Source: a virus
DNA length: 9,409 bases
Strand: one strand, 5' to 3'
UHGV virus genome: UHGV-0216968
This document shows positions 340-5,976 of the stretch, one piece after another. Both the position numbers and the translations under genes were made by a program. Every line of letters begins with the position of its first letter. The stretch's first letter is position 1. The notes under the pieces are model-generated. The model made no database searches. It saw only the letters and a list, made by a program, of their open reading frames with translations, and had not been told where the DNA came from.

Positions 340-394
340 GTTGTTTTCAGTCGCCGGATTGAATCGGTAAGATAGGGTTATAACCGGATTTTTT

Positions 395-463
395 AGCTAC
401 ACGTTTAGCTATACGGTCCAGCGTGTAGCTAAAGCCGTATAGCTACGACCAGGCATATAGCTA
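395..463. repeat. five copies of the palindromic hexamer TAGCTA upstream of int
   Basis: TAGCTA at 395, 406, 426, 440 and 458. The copies are arranged as interleaved inverted repeats (TAGCTACACG / CGTGTAGCTA and TAGCTATACGG / CCGTATAGCTA), ending about 18 bp before the int start codon. Confidence 0.6.
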
Positions 464-480
464 CCGATGGGTAAAAAAAC

Positions 481-1820: not shown

Positions 1821-2051
1821 ATGCAAAATACCACCGCCTACGGCGAAGGGCTGCAACTGGCGTTAATGGCAAATCGTGAATTCTGGTCAACATACGATCC
1901 GGAAGACAAATCAACAGCCCCCACAAAACACGAGGTAGTCAGTTTTTTGCGCTCGCGTGGTGCATCGAAAAATCTGGCTGAAAGCATCGACAAGGTGCTG
2001 AGGCCCACCAGCCTTAAATGCGGTGGGCGACCTAAGAAGTGGAAACGGTAA
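1821..2051 (+). CDS. hypothetical small protein, 76 aa, basic C-terminal tail (GGRPKKWKR)
   Basis: ORF with ATG at 1821. A TATAAT box lies upstream at 1770-1775 and a terminator hairpin immediately follows the stop. No clear Shine-Dalgarno and no recognisable family. Confidence 0.35.
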   Translation: MQNTTAYGEGLQLALMANREFWSTYDPEDKSTAPTKHEVVSFLRSRGASKNLAESIDKVLRPTSLKCGGRPKKWKR

Positions 2052-2056
2052 TCACA

Positions 2057-2086
2057 ATAGCGGCCCTTTGCGGTCGCTATTTTTTT
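2057..2086 (+). terminator. rho-independent terminator
   Basis: Stem ATAGCGGCC (2057-2065) / GGTCGCTAT (2072-2080) with one G-U wobble, then T6 (2081-2086). Confidence 0.6.
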
Positions 2087-2122
2087 GCAGAAAGAAAAGC
2101 GTAATCAATGAGATAAAAAACA

Positions 2123-2156
2123 GTGGGTACCGTTTTAAAACGGTGGGTACTGTTTT
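2123..2156. promoter_or_regulatory. operator-like site upstream of alpA
   Basis: Direct repeat GTGGGTACCGTTTT (2123-2136) and GTGGGTACTGTTTT (2143-2156) enclosing a perfect 16-bp palindrome ACCGTTTTAAAACGGT (2129-2144), about 65 bp upstream of the alpA start. Confidence 0.4.
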
Positions 2157-2221
2157 TCCCGCCCTGCCCTGTTTTACCGTATTTATCACCGGAATACGCC
2201 GGATTAACGAGGTAAAACATA

Positions 2222-2428
2222 GTGGAAACAATCAGAAAAATACTTACCCGTCAGGAAGTAAAAAATATTCTGCGCATCAAGGCAGACAGTTCGCTACAGG
2301 ACATGATCAACGCCGGAAAATTCCCGAAAGGCTTCAAAATCGGTCTGCGTCGTGTTGGCTGGTATGAAGATGAAGTGCTGGCCTGGCTGAAAGAGCGCGA
2401 GGAAGAAGCGCGCGGAACGGCTGCGTAA
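2222..2428 (+). CDS. alpA: AlpA-family (MerR-like HTH) regulator/excisionase-like protein, 68 aa
   Basis: GTG start at 2222 with GAGG at 2208-2211. Translation METIRKILTRQEVKNILRIKADSSLQDMINAGKFPKGFKIGLRRVGWYEDEVLAWL has the characteristic AlpA pattern (R-VGW-E-EV-AWL). Position directly after int is typical for Gram-negative PICI/P4-like islands. Confidence 0.85.
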   Translation: METIRKILTRQEVKNILRIKADSSLQDMINAGKFPKGFKIGLRRVGWYEDEVLAWLKEREEEARGTAA

Positions 2429-2578
2429 TGGTGTGAGGCGTAACGCGATGAACATAACAAAAAGCGCCCCGTTGCCGGAGCGCCCTTGCGAACAATTAAC
2501 CTGCTGCGAAAAAAATGGATCAGTGCAGGGGAATTATATCAACCGTGTGGCGAAGCGCCACAATTGCCGGATAACGGG

Positions 2579-2607
2579 CAAAACAAAGGCGACCGGGGGC
2601 GGTCGCC
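2579..2607 (-). terminator. rho-independent terminator on the minus strand
   Basis: Perfect 8-bp inverted repeat GGCGACCG-ggg-CGGTCGCC (2588-2607). On the minus strand it is followed by UUUGUUUUG (plus-strand 2579-2587). Lies about 68 bp downstream of the minus-strand small ORF. Confidence 0.45.
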
Positions 2608-2674
2608 AATGGATATACACTAAACTTGAACGCATCACCAACAATGCCACATTTGCGGCTGGTGGGCAATGTGA

Positions 2675-2854
2675 TCAGTCAGATTTGGTTCGTTCCAAGG
2701 TTTGCAACGAGAGCTTTTTCCTGTGCTCTTTAAGGAATTTCTCAAGAGCAAACGAACAAGGTGCGAATCTTTCTGATTCATGTTCATGCGCTATATTTTT
2801 GCGTCGTCTCTTACGAGTTGGCGATGGTGTTTTGGTTGATTCTGTGTCGCTCAT
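2675..2854 (-). CDS. hypothetical small basic protein, 59 aa (MSDTESTKTPSPTRKRRRKNIAHEHESERFAPCSFALEKFLKEHRKKLSLQTLERTKSD)
   Basis: Hand-translated minus-strand ORF, below the size cut-off of the supplied ORF track. ATG at 2854-2852 with AGGA 7 nt upstream, TGA at 2677-2675. Sits 57 bp downstream of the RHH gene on the same strand and before a minus-strand terminator. No family recognised. Confidence 0.3.
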   Translation of the reverse strand: MSDTESTKTPSPTRKRRRKNIAHEHESERFAPCSFALEKFLKEHRKKLSLQTLERTKSD

Positions 2855-2911
2855 GGTGCTGTCCTGTAAAGCAATGCGCCTGCGTTCCTCAAACTATGGC
2901 GCTGATAGTGG

Positions 2912-3217
2912 CTATTCCTGCTCTTTGACCTTGCGTCGCTGGAGTTCTTCACGCGCGACGGTGACGAGTTGCCCGATCTCCTCGGCGGCTTTGACTCCGA
3001 TTTTTTCCACCTGCGCTAGGGCATCGAGCGAAGAAACCAGGAGGTTTTCTCCGCTTCCTTCTGCCTGGCGGCGGGCGATTTCACCGCGCATGGCGGTTAC
3101 TATGAATCCGGCGTTGCTTTCACCGTCCAGTTTTACGGATTCCATGCCTTCAATAACATCATGCGGGATCCGAGCTGTCAGTGATTGTGATTTTGCGTTT
3201 TTTGAACCTGTAGCCAT
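2912..3217 (-). CDS. ribbon-helix-helix-type DNA-binding protein, candidate island regulator, 101 aa
   Basis: ATG at 3217-3215 with GAGAGG about 7 nt upstream. The ORF-track start at 3232 is a TTG that contains this Shine-Dalgarno. N-terminal SLTARIPHDVIEGMESVKL fits the strand-helix pattern of Arc/CopG/MetJ RHH domains. Transcribed divergently from the downstream operon. Confidence 0.6.
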   Translation of the reverse strand: MATGSKNAKSQSLTARIPHDVIEGMESVKLDGESNAGFIVTAMRGEIARRQAEGSGENLLVSSLDALAQVEKIGVKAAEEIGQLVTVAREELQRRKVKEQE

Positions 3218-3238
3218 CTGTAATCCTCTCAATGAAAG

Positions 3239-3315
3239 TGTAAGACAATATACACATAAAAAGTCTTACATAAAAGCATTGACATGTAAGCCACCTATAA
3301 ATAAAGTTACTTACA
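3239..3315. promoter_or_regulatory. divergent promoter/operator region
   Basis: Rightward promoter TTGACA (3279-3284), 17 bp, TAAAGT (3302-3307). Leftward -10 candidate TATATT on the minus strand (3247-3252). Four copies of TGTAAG/CTTACA (3239-3244, 3265-3270, 3285-3290, 3310-3315) including the inverted repeat TGTAAGAC (3239-3246) / GTCTTACA (3263-3270). Hairpin CACCTTG-ttaatg-CAAGGTG at 3314-3333 in the rightward leader. Confidence 0.45.
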
Positions 3316-3413
3316 CCTTGTTAATGCAAGGTGCAGAAACGACGAAACCCCGCACTGTAGGAGCAGTAACGGGGCTTCTAACCACCAACGATAGCAAGAT
3401 TATCGAGGTAGCT

Positions 3414-3620
3414 ATGTTAAATCATACCACACACCCGCAAGGGCGGGACTCGCACAACCTGAATAAATACATCTGGCGTTTTATCGCCCTGAGCACGGCA
3501 CAACCGCGCGTGATTCACATCGTGGCCACCAGCGAACAGGAAGCCCGTCAACAATCACCGGCTGGCTGCGTGATGGTATTCGCCGCCCGTATTCGTCAGG
3601 AGGTGCACCATGTGCAATAA
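3414..3620 (+). CDS. hypothetical small protein, 68 aa
   Basis: ATG at 3414 with GAGG at 3405-3408. It is the C-terminal part of the implausible 395-aa track ORF. First gene after the rightward promoter and its stop overlaps the next start. Product unknown. Confidence 0.4.
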   Translation: MLNHTTHPQGRDSHNLNKYIWRFIALSTAQPRVIHIVATSEQEARQQSPAGCVMVFAARIRQEVHHVQ

Positions 3621-4071: not shown

Positions 4072-4371
4072 ATGAAACAGAAAATTTCTGGCTTTACTGC
4101 CAGCGGCCTCCCTCGGCCTGAAATCTGCCCCGGCGATATTTACCGGGATAAATACGGCAGCACGGTAATGATTAAAGGTGTTGCCGGACGGTGCGTTACT
4201 TACCGCCGTGAAGGTTATGAATATGACTGCGTGATGCCTGTTTATCAGTTCCGGCGTGATTTTTCTCTGGTACAGAACGCAACACGCGGTAAGCCCACCA
4301 GTTGGGAAAAAGCACGGGAAAATATTAAGAAAATAAAAAGCATGCTCAGCGCATCCAGAGGTAAAAAATGA
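4072..4371 (+). CDS. hypothetical protein, 99 aa
   Basis: ATG at 4072. Its stop overlaps the start of the replication gene (ATGA at 4368-4371). Basic C-terminus. No recognisable family. Confidence 0.5.
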   Translation: MKQKISGFTASGLPRPEICPGDIYRDKYGSTVMIKGVAGRCVTYRREGYEYDCVMPVYQFRRDFSLVQNATRGKPTSWEKARENIKKIKSMLSASRGKK

Positions 4372-5774
4372 AACTGGCACCGAACGTAAAACTGTTACCG
4401 AAAGATAAACACACTGAGGCGGTTATTTTTGCGGGTGATAATGCTCACTCCTTTGCAGAACATTACATGATTGCACAGGCCAAAAAAGCAGGCGATCCCA
4501 TCCCTCCGGTTTACCTGGGCCGTTATCAGTTAAGCGAACTGGACAATTTACAGATTGTTGATGAAGGACGATACAGAGCAAAGGTCATACGCGCCGGAAA
4601 CCTGGACGATATGCAGATGCTGACCATTGCCACCAAACTGGCGATCGCAGGTGTCCGGGAAGCGCGGTTACTTTCAGAGAATTTCGAACTACTGGAAGAC
4701 TGGAGCGAGCAACTACCGCGCCTTAAAGAAACCTGGGAACGTGGGGAAAGCCTGGTCATGAATGGTGGAAAGCGAAAAATCACACTTCCCATCTCATGGG
4801 GTTCTGAGGGATTCGACGCGCAGCAAAGCTACGTAATTAAGGGGCTTATTCCGGCTGAATCATTATGCAGCACCTACGGGGCCAGCGGCTCTTATAAATC
4901 GTTCCTGGCTATTTCCTGGTCGTGCCATGTTGCCACAGGTATGGCATGGGGAGGCCGCAGGGTCAGTAAGGGCGCGGTTATCTATATAGCTGGTGAAGGC
5001 AGCATGGGCGTAAAACGCCGCGTTAAGGCGTGGGAGATAACCCACGACAAGGTGGTTACAGATTTGTGCATCATTAACGCGCCTGTTTTCCCTGCATCGC
5101 CTGACTATGTGGAGCAGGTTATCAGAACTGCCGGACTTGTTAAGAGCAGAACGGGCGAAAATGTGCGGCTGATTGTGATAGACACGCTGGCCCGTTGCTT
5201 TGGTGGGAATGATGAAAATGATTCCCGTGATATGGGCGCATTTATCCAGGGGTGTGACGCGATAAAGCAGGCCACAGGGGCCACGGTGCTGGTGGTTCAC
5301 CATTCCGGCAAGGATGAAACAAAGGGGGCGCGTGGTTCCAGCGCATTCCGTGCCGCACTGGATGCAGAGTACCGAATCAGCCGGGAAAATTCAGACGTTA
5401 CAGCACTGGTGGCGGCGTGTACGAAGATGAAGGACGCAGAGGAGCCAAAAGAAAGCGCATACGACCTTAAAAGCGTGGAGGTGTTTACCGATACAGATGG
5501 CGAAGAGATTGTGTCCATGGTGGTGATTGACGTTCCCCGCGCCCCTGCTGAACTGGAACGCATCGAGGAGGCCGGGAACAAGACGGAAAATCACACGGCT
5601 TTATGGGGTTGTATCCGGTCACGTATACAGCATGGTGATAAATGCACGATCCCGCTGCTACGTGATGACATGAAAAAGCTGGGATATGACACAAAACACC
5701 TTAAACGATGGTTAGCCAAACTGGAAAAAGACGGCGTGATTTGCGTCGATGGGGATGATGTTCACCCACTGTAA
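4368..5774 (+). CDS. replication protein: RecA-superfamily RepA/DnaB-like ATPase, 468 aa
   Basis: ATG at 4368 with AGAGG at 4357-4361. Contains a P-loop-like YGASGSYKS, Walker B-like RLIVIDTL and a VLVVHHSGKD motif characteristic of RepA-type replicative helicases. The C-terminal ~60 aa look like a small DNA-binding domain. Iterons follow immediately downstream. Confidence 0.85.
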   Translation: MKLAPNVKLLPKDKHTEAVIFAGDNAHSFAEHYMIAQAKKAGDPIPPVYLGRYQLSELDNLQIVDEGRYRAKVIRAGNLDDMQMLTIATKLAIAGVREARLLSENFELLEDWSEQLPRLKETWERGESLVMNGGKRKITLPISWGSEGFDAQQSYVIKGLIPAESLCSTYGASGSYKSFLAISWSCHVATGMAWGGRRVSKGAVIYIAGEGSMGVKRRVKAWEITHDKVVTDLCIINAPVFPASPDYVEQVIRTAGLVKSRTGENVRLIVIDTLARCFGGNDENDSRDMGAFIQGCDAIKQATGATVLVVHHSGKDETKGARGSSAFRAALDAEYRISRENSDVTALVAACTKMKDAEEPKESAYDLKSVEVFTDTDGEEIVSMVVIDVPRAPAELERIEEAGNKTENHTALWGCIRSRIQHGDKCTIPLLRDDMKKLGYDTKHLKRWLAKLEKDGVICVDGDDVHPL

Positions 5775-5973
5775 AAAGTGGGCGTTAAAAGTGGGAATAG
5801 TGGGTAATTTAACTGGAATTTAACAAAATCGCCCACTTTCCCACATGTATACATCCCAAAAAGTGGGCACTAAAAAAATTCTTATGAAACAGTACGATAT
5901 AAAACCACAAAATCCCAGGTGGGACGAAGTGGGAAACCATGAAAAGTGGGTAGAAAAAGTGGGCACAGGTGGG
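5765..5973. repeat. iteron cluster, putative origin of replication
   Basis: At least 12 copies of GTGGG (consensus about AAGTGGG): plus-strand at 5778, 5791, 5800, 5863, 5919, 5929, 5946, 5959 and 5969, inverted at 5765-5769, 5832-5836 and 5840-5844. They flank an AT-rich stretch at about 5868-5915. Confidence 0.6.
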
Positions 5974-5976
5974 CGC

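What the first reader, a model, noticed from the sequence alone, without database searches (positions are those of the whole stretch)
2123..2156. Composite direct repeat and palindrome upstream of alpA sharing the iteron core
GTGGGTAC(C/T)GTTTT occurs twice, 20 bp apart, overlapping a perfect 16-bp palindrome. It is positioned to control alpA transcription and contains the same GTGGG core as the origin iterons.
Basis: seen in the sequence. Interest (0 to 1): 0.4.

Follow-up and report, generated by a model that had tools for sequence, protein, structure and literature searches.

The report
Tandem dyad operators upstream of alpA
The repeat is real. It is a pair of adjacent 20-bp protein-binding sites in front of alpA, the master-switch gene of an E. 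coli phage satellite, and its resemblance to the replication-origin repeats is a coincidence.

Summary
GTGGGTAC(C/T)GTTTT lies at 2123-2136 and 2143-2156, and a perfect 16-bp palindrome lies at 2129-2144.

The true unit is 20 bp: AAAACNGT-N4-ACNGTTTT, present twice in tandem (2117-2136 and 2137-2156). That makes four half-sites.

The window is an E. coli phage-inducible chromosomal island at tRNA-Pro. The element sits between the terminator of an orphan gene (orf76) and alpA.

Across 58 related islands:
- The 8-bp arms are conserved, although synonymous sites of the flanking genes are saturated.
- The 4-bp spacers that create "GTGGG" vary freely (GGGT, GAGT, GGAT, GTAT, GACT, TCTA, TGGT, and others).
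- GTGGG in the element does not track the origin type. Islands with an identical element carry GTGAACAG, GGTAGA or GTGAGG iterons.

The Rep/iteron link is therefore refuted.

A 15-nt stretch of fixed length but divergent sequence separates the element from an invariant core block, TTTACCGTATTT. This block holds a likely -10 and has no -35. The two dyads would be centred near -41 and -61.

The most likely reading is tandem activator sites of the alpA promoter. The protein that binds them is unknown. Candidates are AlpA, a helper-phage inducer, orf76 or a host factor.

This is an undescribed motif of an ordinary kind.

The parts
2117..2136 (.). Distal dyad (unit 1): AAAACAGT-GGGT-ACCGTTTT. The half-sites are 2117-2124 and 2129-2136; the variable spacer is 2125-2128.
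   Evidence: The arms are nearly invariant in relatives. The spacer has 7 variants. The central N of each ACNGT varies. Unit 1 is degenerate in L112 and L115 and deleted in L090 and L105.
2137..2156 (.). Promoter-proximal dyad (unit 2): AAAACGGT-GGGT-ACTGTTTT. The half-sites are 2137-2144 and 2149-2156; the variable spacer is 2145-2148.
   Evidence: Both arms are invariant in all 15 distinct operator strings. The spacer has 6 variants.
2129..2144 (.). Perfect 16-bp palindrome ACCGTTTTAAAACGGT, formed by the junction of half-sites 2 and 3.
   Evidence: In relatives it reads ACCGTTTAAAAACGGT or ACCGTTTAAAACGGT (15 bp), so perfect symmetry is not conserved.
2158..2172 (+). Spacer of fixed length (15 nt) and divergent sequence between the operator and the core promoter block.
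   Evidence: It is 15 nt in all 19 distinct regulatory regions, with 11 different sequences.
2173..2184 (+). Invariant block TTTACCGTATTT containing the likeliest -10 hexamer, TACCGT (2175-2180). The inferred transcription start is about 2187-2188. There is no -35 match.
   Evidence: The block is invariant in alignment A3. The consensus scan finds no sigma-70 promoter here. The -10 and TSS are inference only.
2189..2202 (+). CCGG-N6-CCGG element. It may be a 5'-UTR hairpin or a further protein site.
   Evidence: It is conserved in operator-bearing islands and in distant AlpA-clade islands that lack the dyads. It forms a hairpin in the predicted fold.
2222..2428 (+). alpA (68 aa, GTG start; Shine-Dalgarno GAGGT at 2209-2213), the regulated gene.
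   Evidence: Pfam Phage_AlpA, E=4.5e-8. PHROG 'excisionase and transcriptional regulator'. Relatives have ATG at the same position.
2056..2088 (+). Intrinsic terminator of orf76 (10-bp stem plus T7). It insulates the operator from upstream transcription.
   Evidence: A terminator sits at the equivalent position, with a different sequence, in most related islands aligned; L005 carries an insertion there.
1821..2051 (+). orf76, an orphan gene found only in E. coli, always linked to the operator. It is a candidate binder with weak support.

Best explanation
The element is a pair of adjacent, dyad-symmetric protein-binding sites with consensus AAAACNGT-N4-ACNGTTT(T), 19-20 bp centre to centre. Together they form the upstream regulatory module of PalpA. 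This promoter drives alpA, the master activator gene of an E. coli phage-inducible chromosomal island (PICI/cf-PICI type) integrated at tRNA-Pro.

Each 20-bp unit would bind one dimer, or two oppositely oriented monomers. Binding would be through the conserved 8-bp arms. The 4-bp centre is not read, which is why it drifts and happens to spell GTGGG in this island.

The core promoter downstream has a weak -10 (TACCGT) and no -35. The dyads are centred at about -41 and -61 from the inferred start. The sites therefore most likely work as class-II/class-I-type activator sites that recruit RNA polymerase.

This would be the cis-target for the two inputs known experimentally for PICI alpA promoters: AlpA positive autoregulation and/or the still unidentified helper-phage inducer.

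Shown here: the anatomy, the conservation pattern, the fixed spacing, and independence from Rep/ori.

Inferred: the transcription start, activation rather than repression, and the identity of the binder. My rough split for the binder is AlpA about 0.35, helper-phage protein about 0.25, orf76 about 0.15, host factor about 0.15.
For: Anatomy:
- Two 20-bp dyads, 2 matches against 0.15 expected.

Phylogenetic footprint:
- Among 15 distinct operator strings, all 8 spacer columns vary.
- Only 2 of 28 specified arm columns vary (hypergeometric p about 1.5e-6, my calculation).
- Synonymous sites of the flanking genes are saturated between the same lineages: dS is about 1 for alpA and above 2.6 for orf76.
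- The rest of the intergenic region is diverged.

Geometry:
- The distance to the invariant block TTTACCGTATTT is exactly 15 nt in all 19 distinct regions, despite 11 different spacer sequences.

Promoter:
- No sigma-70 consensus promoter is detected in the region. This fits an activator-dependent promoter.

Specificity:
- The tandem pattern occurs in 49 IMG/VR contigs, all 7-14 kb satellites with the motif about 1.65 kb from the int end.
- About 374 of 5426 complete E. coli genomes carry the region.
- The dyad occurs nowhere else in the island.

Literature:
- In EcCICFT073 and EcCIMP1 the alpA promoter is silent without a helper phage.
- It is activated by AlpA and, independently, by helper-phage induction. 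The phage inducer is unidentified (PMC6092414, PMC11773190).
Against: - No transcription start is mapped, so the -41/-61 positions rest on my choice of TACCGT as the -10.
- No binder is identified.
- AlpA relatives with almost the same recognition helix (FQDMINAG in L116-L120 against LQDMINAG here) have no such dyads upstream. This argues against AlpA as the binder.
- Excisionase-type wHTH proteins such as AlpA more often bind direct repeats.
- No INPHARED phage carries the joined dyads.
- Single-dyad hits in IMG/VR look like chance or coding sequence, so there is no positive evidence for a phage regulator that uses this motif.
- The experimentally studied PICI, EcCICFT073, has a different alpA allele and a different upstream architecture. 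Its data transfer only by analogy.
- A site overlapping the -35 region is equally well placed for repression.
Confidence: 0.6

Rival explanations
1. Repressor operator. The tandem dyads overlap the -35 region of PalpA. An island-encoded repressor would occupy them and keep the island silent, with the helper phage inducing by counteracting it, as in SaPI Stl. The best candidate is the lineage-restricted Orf76, encoded immediately upstream with its own -10 and terminator.
For: - orf76 is present in every operator-bearing locus and absent from every AlpA-relative locus that lacks the operator.
- It is a real gene under purifying selection, with dN/dS 0.07-0.17.
- It has a perfect TATAAT upstream (sequence print) and a strong terminator, so it looks like a stand-alone, constitutively expressed cassette.
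- Its conserved C-terminal GGRPKKW(K)R tail resembles an AT-hook, and the half-sites carry A4/T4 tracts.
- Two adjacent dyads 20 bp apart are typical of cooperative repressor operators.
Against: - The core promoter has no -35 and a poor -10, so it should need activation rather than repression.
- The Orf76 model is a three-helix bundle with no significant match to any solved DNA-binding fold (best Foldseek E=3). It has no Pfam or PHROG family.
- The co-occurrence comes from one lineage, so it is not phylogenetically independent.
- In related PICIs a PalpA reporter is off without any island repressor (PMC6092414).
Confidence: 0.2
2. The GTGGGTAC repeats are Rep-binding sites related to the origin iterons, and they couple replication protein levels to alpA transcription.
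For: AGTGGGTA at 2122-2129 matches two ori iterons (5799-5806 and 5945-5952) over 8 nt. GTGGG is the iteron core, present 12 times at 5765-5975.
Against: - GTGGG falls in the unconserved spacer.
- It is lost in near-identical islands.
- It is independent of ori type in 58 islands.
- An identical element occurs with a primase-type Rep and a GTGAACAG ori containing no GTGGG.
- GTGGG occurs at the background rate outside the ori.
Confidence: 0.03
3. Nucleic-acid structure rather than protein site. The four arms would fold into a long hairpin (A1:A4, A2:A3) that acts as a terminator, attenuator or 5'-UTR element on read-through or alpA transcripts, or would form a DNA cruciform.
For: - The terminator scan flags 2128-2145.
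- RNA folding pairs 2116-2157 into one long hairpin.
- 97.8% of cells can pair across relatives.
Against: - There are no compensatory changes. The few arm changes that occur break pairs.
- The stem is A/U-rich, with 3 G-C pairs of 7, and the T-run is displaced.
- The folding z-score is only -1.77.
- There is no Rfam match.
- A strong terminator immediately upstream (2056-2081) and the likely promoter downstream leave the element untranscribed.
- The fixed 15-nt distance to the core promoter is a DNA-level constraint.
Confidence: 0.07

Closest known systems
PalpA of Gram-negative PICIs (EcCICFT073, EcCIMP1): the alpA promoter activated by AlpA itself and by helper-phage induction
   Same: The genetic position is the same: the int-alpA module of a PICI, immediately upstream of alpA. 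The island architecture is the same (int, alpA, YlcI/YnfO, Icd-like, DUF4222, Rep plus ori, SSB, capsid, terS). The promoter is expected to be silent unless activated.
   Different: The alpA allele and the cis-elements differ. EcCICFT073 has six 10-bp-phased ACAAC repeats and no ACNGT dyads. No binding site has been defined in the papers I could read. The regulation of this lineage has not been tested.
Tandem cooperative operators of temperate-phage repressors, such as lambda OR1-OR2 with CI at OR2 activating PRM from about -42
   Same: There are two adjacent dyad-symmetric sites about two helical turns apart. The promoter-proximal site abuts or overlaps the -35 region. The half-sites are conserved and the centre is tolerant of change.
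   Different: The sequences are unrelated. The units are 20 bp with an 8-4-8 layout and share a junction, rather than 17-bp sites separated by spacers. No CI-like protein is encoded in the window. Binding and cooperativity are untested.
Helper-responsive promoters of satellite P4 (PLL and Psid, activated by P2 Cox or by Ogr/delta through a TGT-N12-ACA dyad at about -55)
   Same: The logic is the same. A satellite keeps its master or late promoter dependent on a DNA-binding activator, and its cis-site lies upstream of a promoter with a poor -35.
   Different: The motif, its spacing and its position differ. Here the order is ACA...TGT rather than TGT-N12-ACA. The satellite family is different. 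No helper protein is known to act here.
Origin iterons of the same island ((A/G)AGTGGG, 12 copies, 5765-5975)
   Same: They share the pentamer GTGGG, and up to 8 nt (AGTGGGTA) with two of the iterons.
   Different: There is no conservation and no co-variation with Rep/ori type. The pentamer lies in the unread spacer.
Pseudomonas aeruginosa AlpA, a Q-like antiterminator that binds the element GGGACG between -35 and -10
   Same: The name is the same.
   Different: In the P. aeruginosa protein the DNA-binding helix-turn-helix is C-terminal (contact residues R128-H142), and an N-terminal segment forms a ring in the RNA exit channel (PMC9371919). The island AlpA has only 68 aa, so it has no room for such an N-terminal segment. 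The binding element is unrelated.

Membership tests
Rep-binding iterons (origin-type repeats) | Sequence match to the ori iterons beyond chance | tested here: not met
   Only the pentamer GTGGG is shared consistently. It occurs 19 times outside the ori, at the rate expected from base composition.
Rep-binding iterons (origin-type repeats) | Co-variation of the repeat with the Rep/ori type across related elements | tested here: not met
   In 58 islands the GTGGG count in the element (0, 1 or 2) is independent of the four iteron types. Identical elements occur with a GTGAACAG, GGTAGA or GTGAGG ori.
Rep-binding iterons (origin-type repeats) | Conservation of the iteron core in orthologous sites | tested here: not met
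   The core lies in the 4-bp spacer, which has 7 variants in unit 1 and 6 in unit 2.
Rep-binding iterons (origin-type repeats) | Binding by the island's Rep protein | not testable with these tools
   This needs EMSA or footprinting with the protein encoded at 4368-5774.
Dyad-symmetric operator or activator site for a dimeric DNA-binding protein | Inverted half-sites at fixed spacing, more than chance would give | tested here: met
   AAAACRGT-N4-ACYGTTTT occurs twice against 0.15 expected, with 0 of 200 shuffles reaching 2. See also I10 and D12.
Dyad-symmetric operator or activator site for a dimeric DNA-binding protein | Half-sites conserved while the centre and non-contacted positions drift | tested here: met
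   8 of 8 spacer columns are variable against 2 of 28 arm columns. Flanking synonymous sites are saturated.
Dyad-symmetric operator or activator site for a dimeric DNA-binding protein | Fixed phasing relative to the core promoter | tested here: met
   The spacer is 15 nt in all 19 distinct regions, with 11 different sequences.
Dyad-symmetric operator or activator site for a dimeric DNA-binding protein | Position at or overlapping the promoter (-35 region; about -41.5 for class II activation) | tested here: inconclusive
   The position depends on an inferred -10 (TACCGT 2175-2180) and an inferred TSS (2187-2188). No experimental TSS is available.
Dyad-symmetric operator or activator site for a dimeric DNA-binding protein | A cognate protein that binds it | not testable with these tools
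   The candidates are AlpA, a helper-phage factor, Orf76 and a host TF. The Orf76 fold gave no DNA-binding match.
PICI alpA promoter (AlpA-autoactivated, helper-induced) | Location immediately upstream of alpA in the int-alpA module of a PICI | tested here: met
   The islands are at tRNA-Pro and carry int, alpA, Rep/ori, capsid and terS.
PICI alpA promoter (AlpA-autoactivated, helper-induced) | Activation by AlpA and by helper-phage induction | not testable with these tools
   This was shown only for EcCICFT073 and EcCIMP1 (PMC6092414, PMC11773190).
PICI alpA promoter (AlpA-autoactivated, helper-induced) | Sequence similarity to the characterised EcCICFT073 PalpA region | tested here: not met
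   EcCICFT073 (L062:35160-35526) has 10-bp ACAAC repeats and no dyads.
Intrinsic terminator or structured RNA | G+C-rich stem directly followed by a U-run; covariation; a known family | tested here: not met
   The stem has 3 G-C pairs of 7 and the T-run is displaced. There are 0 compensatory pairs. Rfam gives no match. The folding z-score is -1.77.
P2/P4 Ogr/delta-type late promoter site | TGT-N12-ACA dyad centred near -55 | tested here: not met
   Read directly from the sequence: ACA (2120-2122) comes before TGT (2151-2153) on both strands, and there is no TGT-N12-ACA.

The most novel reading that the evidence does not exclude
The 40-bp tandem dyad may be a lineage-specific, exchangeable 'sensor module'. 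It would be the docking site through which this PICI lineage detects its helper phage. The detection could be direct, by binding the phage's unidentified inducer protein. Or it could go through the lineage-restricted orphan protein Orf76.

Supporting pattern: other AlpA-clade islands carry completely different helically phased repeats or palindromes in front of alpA, in several cases ahead of a similar core promoter and CCGG-N6-CCGG element. This suggests that helper specificity of Gram-negative PICIs is set by swapping upstream modules. If so, the 40-bp element could serve as bait to identify the long-sought inducer.
Probability: 0.25. Interest if true: 0.6.

Novelty: new member of a known kind. 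Interest (0 to 1): 0.35.

Why it matters
alpA is the master switch of Gram-negative phage-inducible chromosomal islands. The published work I could read shows that its promoter responds to AlpA and to an unidentified helper-phage factor, but it defines no cis-element.

This analysis gives a precise, conserved 40-bp candidate target for one common E. coli lineage, found in about 7% of complete genomes. It says which bases should matter (the arms) and which should not (the spacers, including GTGGG).

That makes reporter mutagenesis and DNA-affinity capture of the binder straightforward. It also removes a misleading link to replication control.

In itself it is an ordinary bacterial operator-type element.

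Tried and rejected
1. Iteron/Rep link. I tested it by comparing operator spacers with ori iterons in 58 islands. There is no association.

2. YlcI/YnfO ('RHH') as the binder. An identical protein occurs with a different PalpA in EcCICFT073. Rejected as a specific binder.

3. Integrase arm sites. attL and attR carry TAGCTA-type repeats, not the dyad. Rejected.

4. AlpA acting as RDF on the same motif at attR. An ATAACGG/ATAACAG/ATAACGG cluster exists in window-type islands. It is not conserved in the L002-type and L003-type attR arms. Inconclusive, and I do not rely on it.

5. A helper-phage operator with the same motif.
- BLAST of the 56-bp region against 50,697 phage genomes gave only chance-level hits.
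Apart from the satellites, its hits were scattered low-GC metagenomic contigs and one recurrent coding sequence.
- Two CFT073 lambdoid prophages have no dyad.
- Overall there was no support, and the test was weak.

6. Orf76 function. There is no Pfam or PHROG family and only 15 clusters, almost all named from E. coli. The AF2 model (pLDDT 79) has no significant PDB match. An apparent similarity to the C-termini of about 250-aa proteins encoded between int and alpA in other lineages was not supported by BLASTP, and those proteins have no Pfam domains.

7. The genome-contig scan with an AlpA alignment returned only 4 loci, which limited the cross-species comparison.

8. Known RNA families. None apart from the tRNA.

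9. Sigma-54 and LexA-box readings of the sequence were checked by eye and do not fit.

Full report
**Observation**

The two copies of GTGGGTAC(C/T)GTTTT are at 2123-2136 and 2143-2156. The perfect palindrome ACCGTTTTAAAACGGT is at 2129-2144. There are no other exact copies in the window.

The repeat is wider than reported. The repeat finder returns a 20-nt tandem repeat, 2117-2136 and 2137-2156, at 90% identity, and a 21-nt inverted repeat with no gap between the arms. Each unit reads AAAAC(A/G)GT-GGGT-AC(C/T)GTTTT: two 8-bp inverted arms around a 4-bp centre. The element is therefore four alternating half-sites.

The dyad pattern matches twice here and nowhere else in the window even with three mismatches. 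Expectation is 0.15, and no shuffle reached 2.

**Context**

The window is a phage-inducible chromosomal island of the capsid-encoding type, integrated at tRNA-Pro(GGG) (195-271), next to yejM in E. coli genomes. Its genes are:
- P4-type integrase, 481-1722;
- a 76-aa orphan gene, orf76, 1821-2051;
- a strong intrinsic terminator, 2056-2081;
- alpA, 2222-2428 (Pfam Phage_AlpA);
- leftward YlcI/YnfO-like genes;
- DUF4222;
- a RepA-like AAA_25 helicase, 4368-5774;
- an iteron-rich ori, 5765-5975;
- SSB, major capsid, decoration protein, a second AlpA-like regulator and terS.

The element lies in the 170-bp gap between the orf76 terminator and alpA.

**Comparative evidence**

The intergenic region matches 374 of 5426 complete E. 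coli genomes. An exact scan of IMG/VR for the tandem pattern found 49 contigs, all 7-14 kb satellites. Together with seven E. coli loci, this gives 58 islands carrying the tandem element.

Conservation of arms and spacers:
- Unit 2 arms (AAAACGGT and ACTGTTTTT) are invariant.
- Unit 1 arms are nearly invariant.
- The central N of ACNGT varies (A/G/T and C/A).
- All eight spacer positions vary. Unit 1 shows GGGT, GAGT, GGAT, GTAT, GACT, TCTA and TATA. Unit 2 shows GGGT, GGGA, GAGT, GACT, AGGT and TGGT.
- With 8 of 8 spacer columns variable against 2 of 28 arm columns, the hypergeometric probability is about 1.5e-6 (my calculation).

Divergence around the element:
- Synonymous sites of alpA and orf76 are saturated between the window-type and L002-type lineages (dS about 1 and above 2.6).
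- The rest of the intergenic DNA is diverged.
- The arms are therefore under strong constraint.

Natural variants also exist. One 20-bp unit is deleted in L090 and L105. The distal unit is degenerate in L112 and L115. The promoter-proximal unit is always intact.

**The iteron idea**

GTGGG is the last two bases of an arm plus the first three spacer bases. It disappears in near-identical islands (GTGAG, GTGGA, GTTGG, GTAGG).

I classified the ori of each island by its iterons: AAGTGGG, AAGTGAGG, GTGAACAG or GGTAGA. There is no association with GTGGG in the element:
- Of 12 islands with two GTGGG in the element, 3 have a GTGGG-type ori.
- Of 14 islands with a GTGGG-type ori, 5 have no GTGGG in the element.
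- L001 has an identical element, a primase-type Rep, and an ori with no GTGGG.
- In the window, GTGGG occurs 19 times outside the ori, at the rate expected from composition.

The link to Rep is refuted as far as sequence can refute it.

**Promoter geometry**

Downstream of the element comes a 15-nt stretch whose length is invariant in 19 distinct regulatory regions, although it has 11 different sequences. Next comes an invariant block, TTTACCGTATTT (2173-2184). After that come CCGG-N6-CCGG (2189-2202), the Shine-Dalgarno sequence and alpA.

The consensus scan finds no sigma-70 promoter in the region. Within the invariant block, TACCGT (2175-2180) has the TAnnnT signature of a -10. No -35 match lies 16-18 bp upstream.

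With a start at 2187-2188, the dyad centres fall at about -41 and -61. These are the positions used by class II and class I activators. This step is inference.

It fits published work on other PICIs. There the alpA promoter is off by itself, is activated by AlpA, and is independently activated by helper-phage induction. The phage factor is unknown (PMC6092414; PMC11773190).

**Who binds**

- Rep is excluded, as shown above.
- The YlcI/YnfO protein is identical in L001 and in EcCICFT073, whose alpA upstream region is completely different: 10-bp-phased ACAAC repeats.
- The integrase arm sites at attL and attR are TAGCTA-type repeats.
- AlpA is the obvious candidate because of its autoregulation. 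But AlpA relatives with nearly the same recognition helix (L116-L120) lack the dyads and carry other repeats or palindromes. Several of them share the core promoter and CCGG-N6-CCGG with this lineage.
- An ATAACGG cluster in the attR arm of window-type islands resembles the half-site, but it is not conserved in other operator-bearing lineages.
- orf76 co-occurs perfectly with the element and is under purifying selection. However, it is an orphan found only in E. coli, and its predicted three-helix fold matches no solved DNA-binding protein.
- No phage genome in INPHARED contains the joined dyads. Single dyads in IMG/VR look like chance or coding sequence.

The binder is unresolved.

**Structure alternatives**

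If transcribed, the element would fold into a long hairpin. However:
- there are no compensatory changes, and the few arm changes break pairs;
- the stem is A/U-rich;
- there is no Rfam match;
- the terminator upstream and the probable promoter downstream leave it untranscribed.

**Verdict**

This is a genuine, conserved and previously undescribed cis-element of an ordinary kind: tandem dyad operators controlling the alpA promoter of one E. coli PICI lineage. It is most likely an activator site.

Its main value is practical. It defines which bases to mutate, and it gives a 40-bp bait for finding the factor that switches these satellites on.

Noticed in passing
window 2189-2202 (also L116-L123, L125 and L040): A CCGG-N6-CCGG element lies between the likely -10 and the Shine-Dalgarno sequence of alpA. 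It is conserved in distant AlpA-clade islands whose upstream repeats are unrelated. L040 carries a 10-bp duplication that gives three CCGG. It could be a 5'-terminal mRNA hairpin or the AlpA site itself.
   Followed up: partly
window 1821-2051 (orf76): This is an orphan 76-aa gene found only in E. coli, with dN/dS 0.07-0.17. It has its own TATAAT (about 1767-1772) and terminator, and a conserved AT-hook-like tail, GGRPKKW(K)R. It is always present with the operator and absent from AlpA-relative loci that lack it. The AF2 model is a three-helix bundle with no PDB match.
   Followed up: partly
L062:35188-35252 (EcCICFT073), L008:4780-4860, L114, L120 and L125 upstream of alpA: Each AlpA-clade lineage has its own helically phased repeats or palindrome upstream of alpA. 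Examples are 10-bp ACAAC repeats, 3 x 22-bp repeats, AAAACTTCCA x4-5, TTACCAAAGT x6, and CAGGAAAAC-N6-GTTTTCCTG. This suggests modular exchange of the upstream regulatory module.
   Followed up: partly
window 394-470; L063:2520-2545: TAGCTA-type repeats (TTAGCTACACG, TTAGCTATACGG and others) flank the 17-bp att core (CTCTCGTGCCGACCAAA) at both attL and attR. They are probably integrase arm-type sites. In L002-type and L003-type islands they read TAGTTATACG.
   Followed up: partly
L063:2456-2482 and the L051 right end: Three direct heptamers, ATAACGG/ATAACAG/ATAACGG, lie about 120-140 bp from the attR core. They resemble the operator half-site (AAAACRG) and could be RDF sites. They are not conserved in the Nissle-type or L003-type attR arms.
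   Followed up: partly
window 5765-5975, and the ori regions of L001-L007: The ori has 12 (A/G)AGTGGG iterons in both orientations, immediately after the rep stop codon and running into the next ORF. Islands with identical int-orf76-alpA modules carry four different Rep/iteron types, so replication modules are shuffled.
   Followed up: yes
L090 and L105 (IMG/VR contigs): In these natural variants exactly one 20-bp unit has been lost, presumably by recombination between the tandem units. In L105 the alpA reading frame appears truncated.
   Followed up: no
L002-type loci, 354 bp upstream of the operator (for example L002:5648): A single half-site, AAAACCGT, sits immediately upstream of the TATAAT of the putative orf76 promoter (GTAAAACCGTCGTATAAT). 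In the window the equivalent sequence is degenerate (CAAACCATCGTATAAT, about 1755-1772).
   Followed up: no
window 2460-2487 and 2588-2607 (minus strand): Two terminator-like hairpins on the minus strand lie just downstream of alpA. They would stop the leftward YlcI/YnfO-type genes (2675-2854 and 2912-3232) from reading into alpA. The 395-aa plus-strand ORF 2433-3620 overlaps these genes and is probably spurious.
   Followed up: no
window 2104-2116: A conserved AATCA-N-A-N-AT box lies directly upstream of unit 1. It reads AATCAATGAGATA here and AATCATCAATATA in the L002-type. It does not fit the IHF consensus well, and its function is unknown.
   Followed up: no
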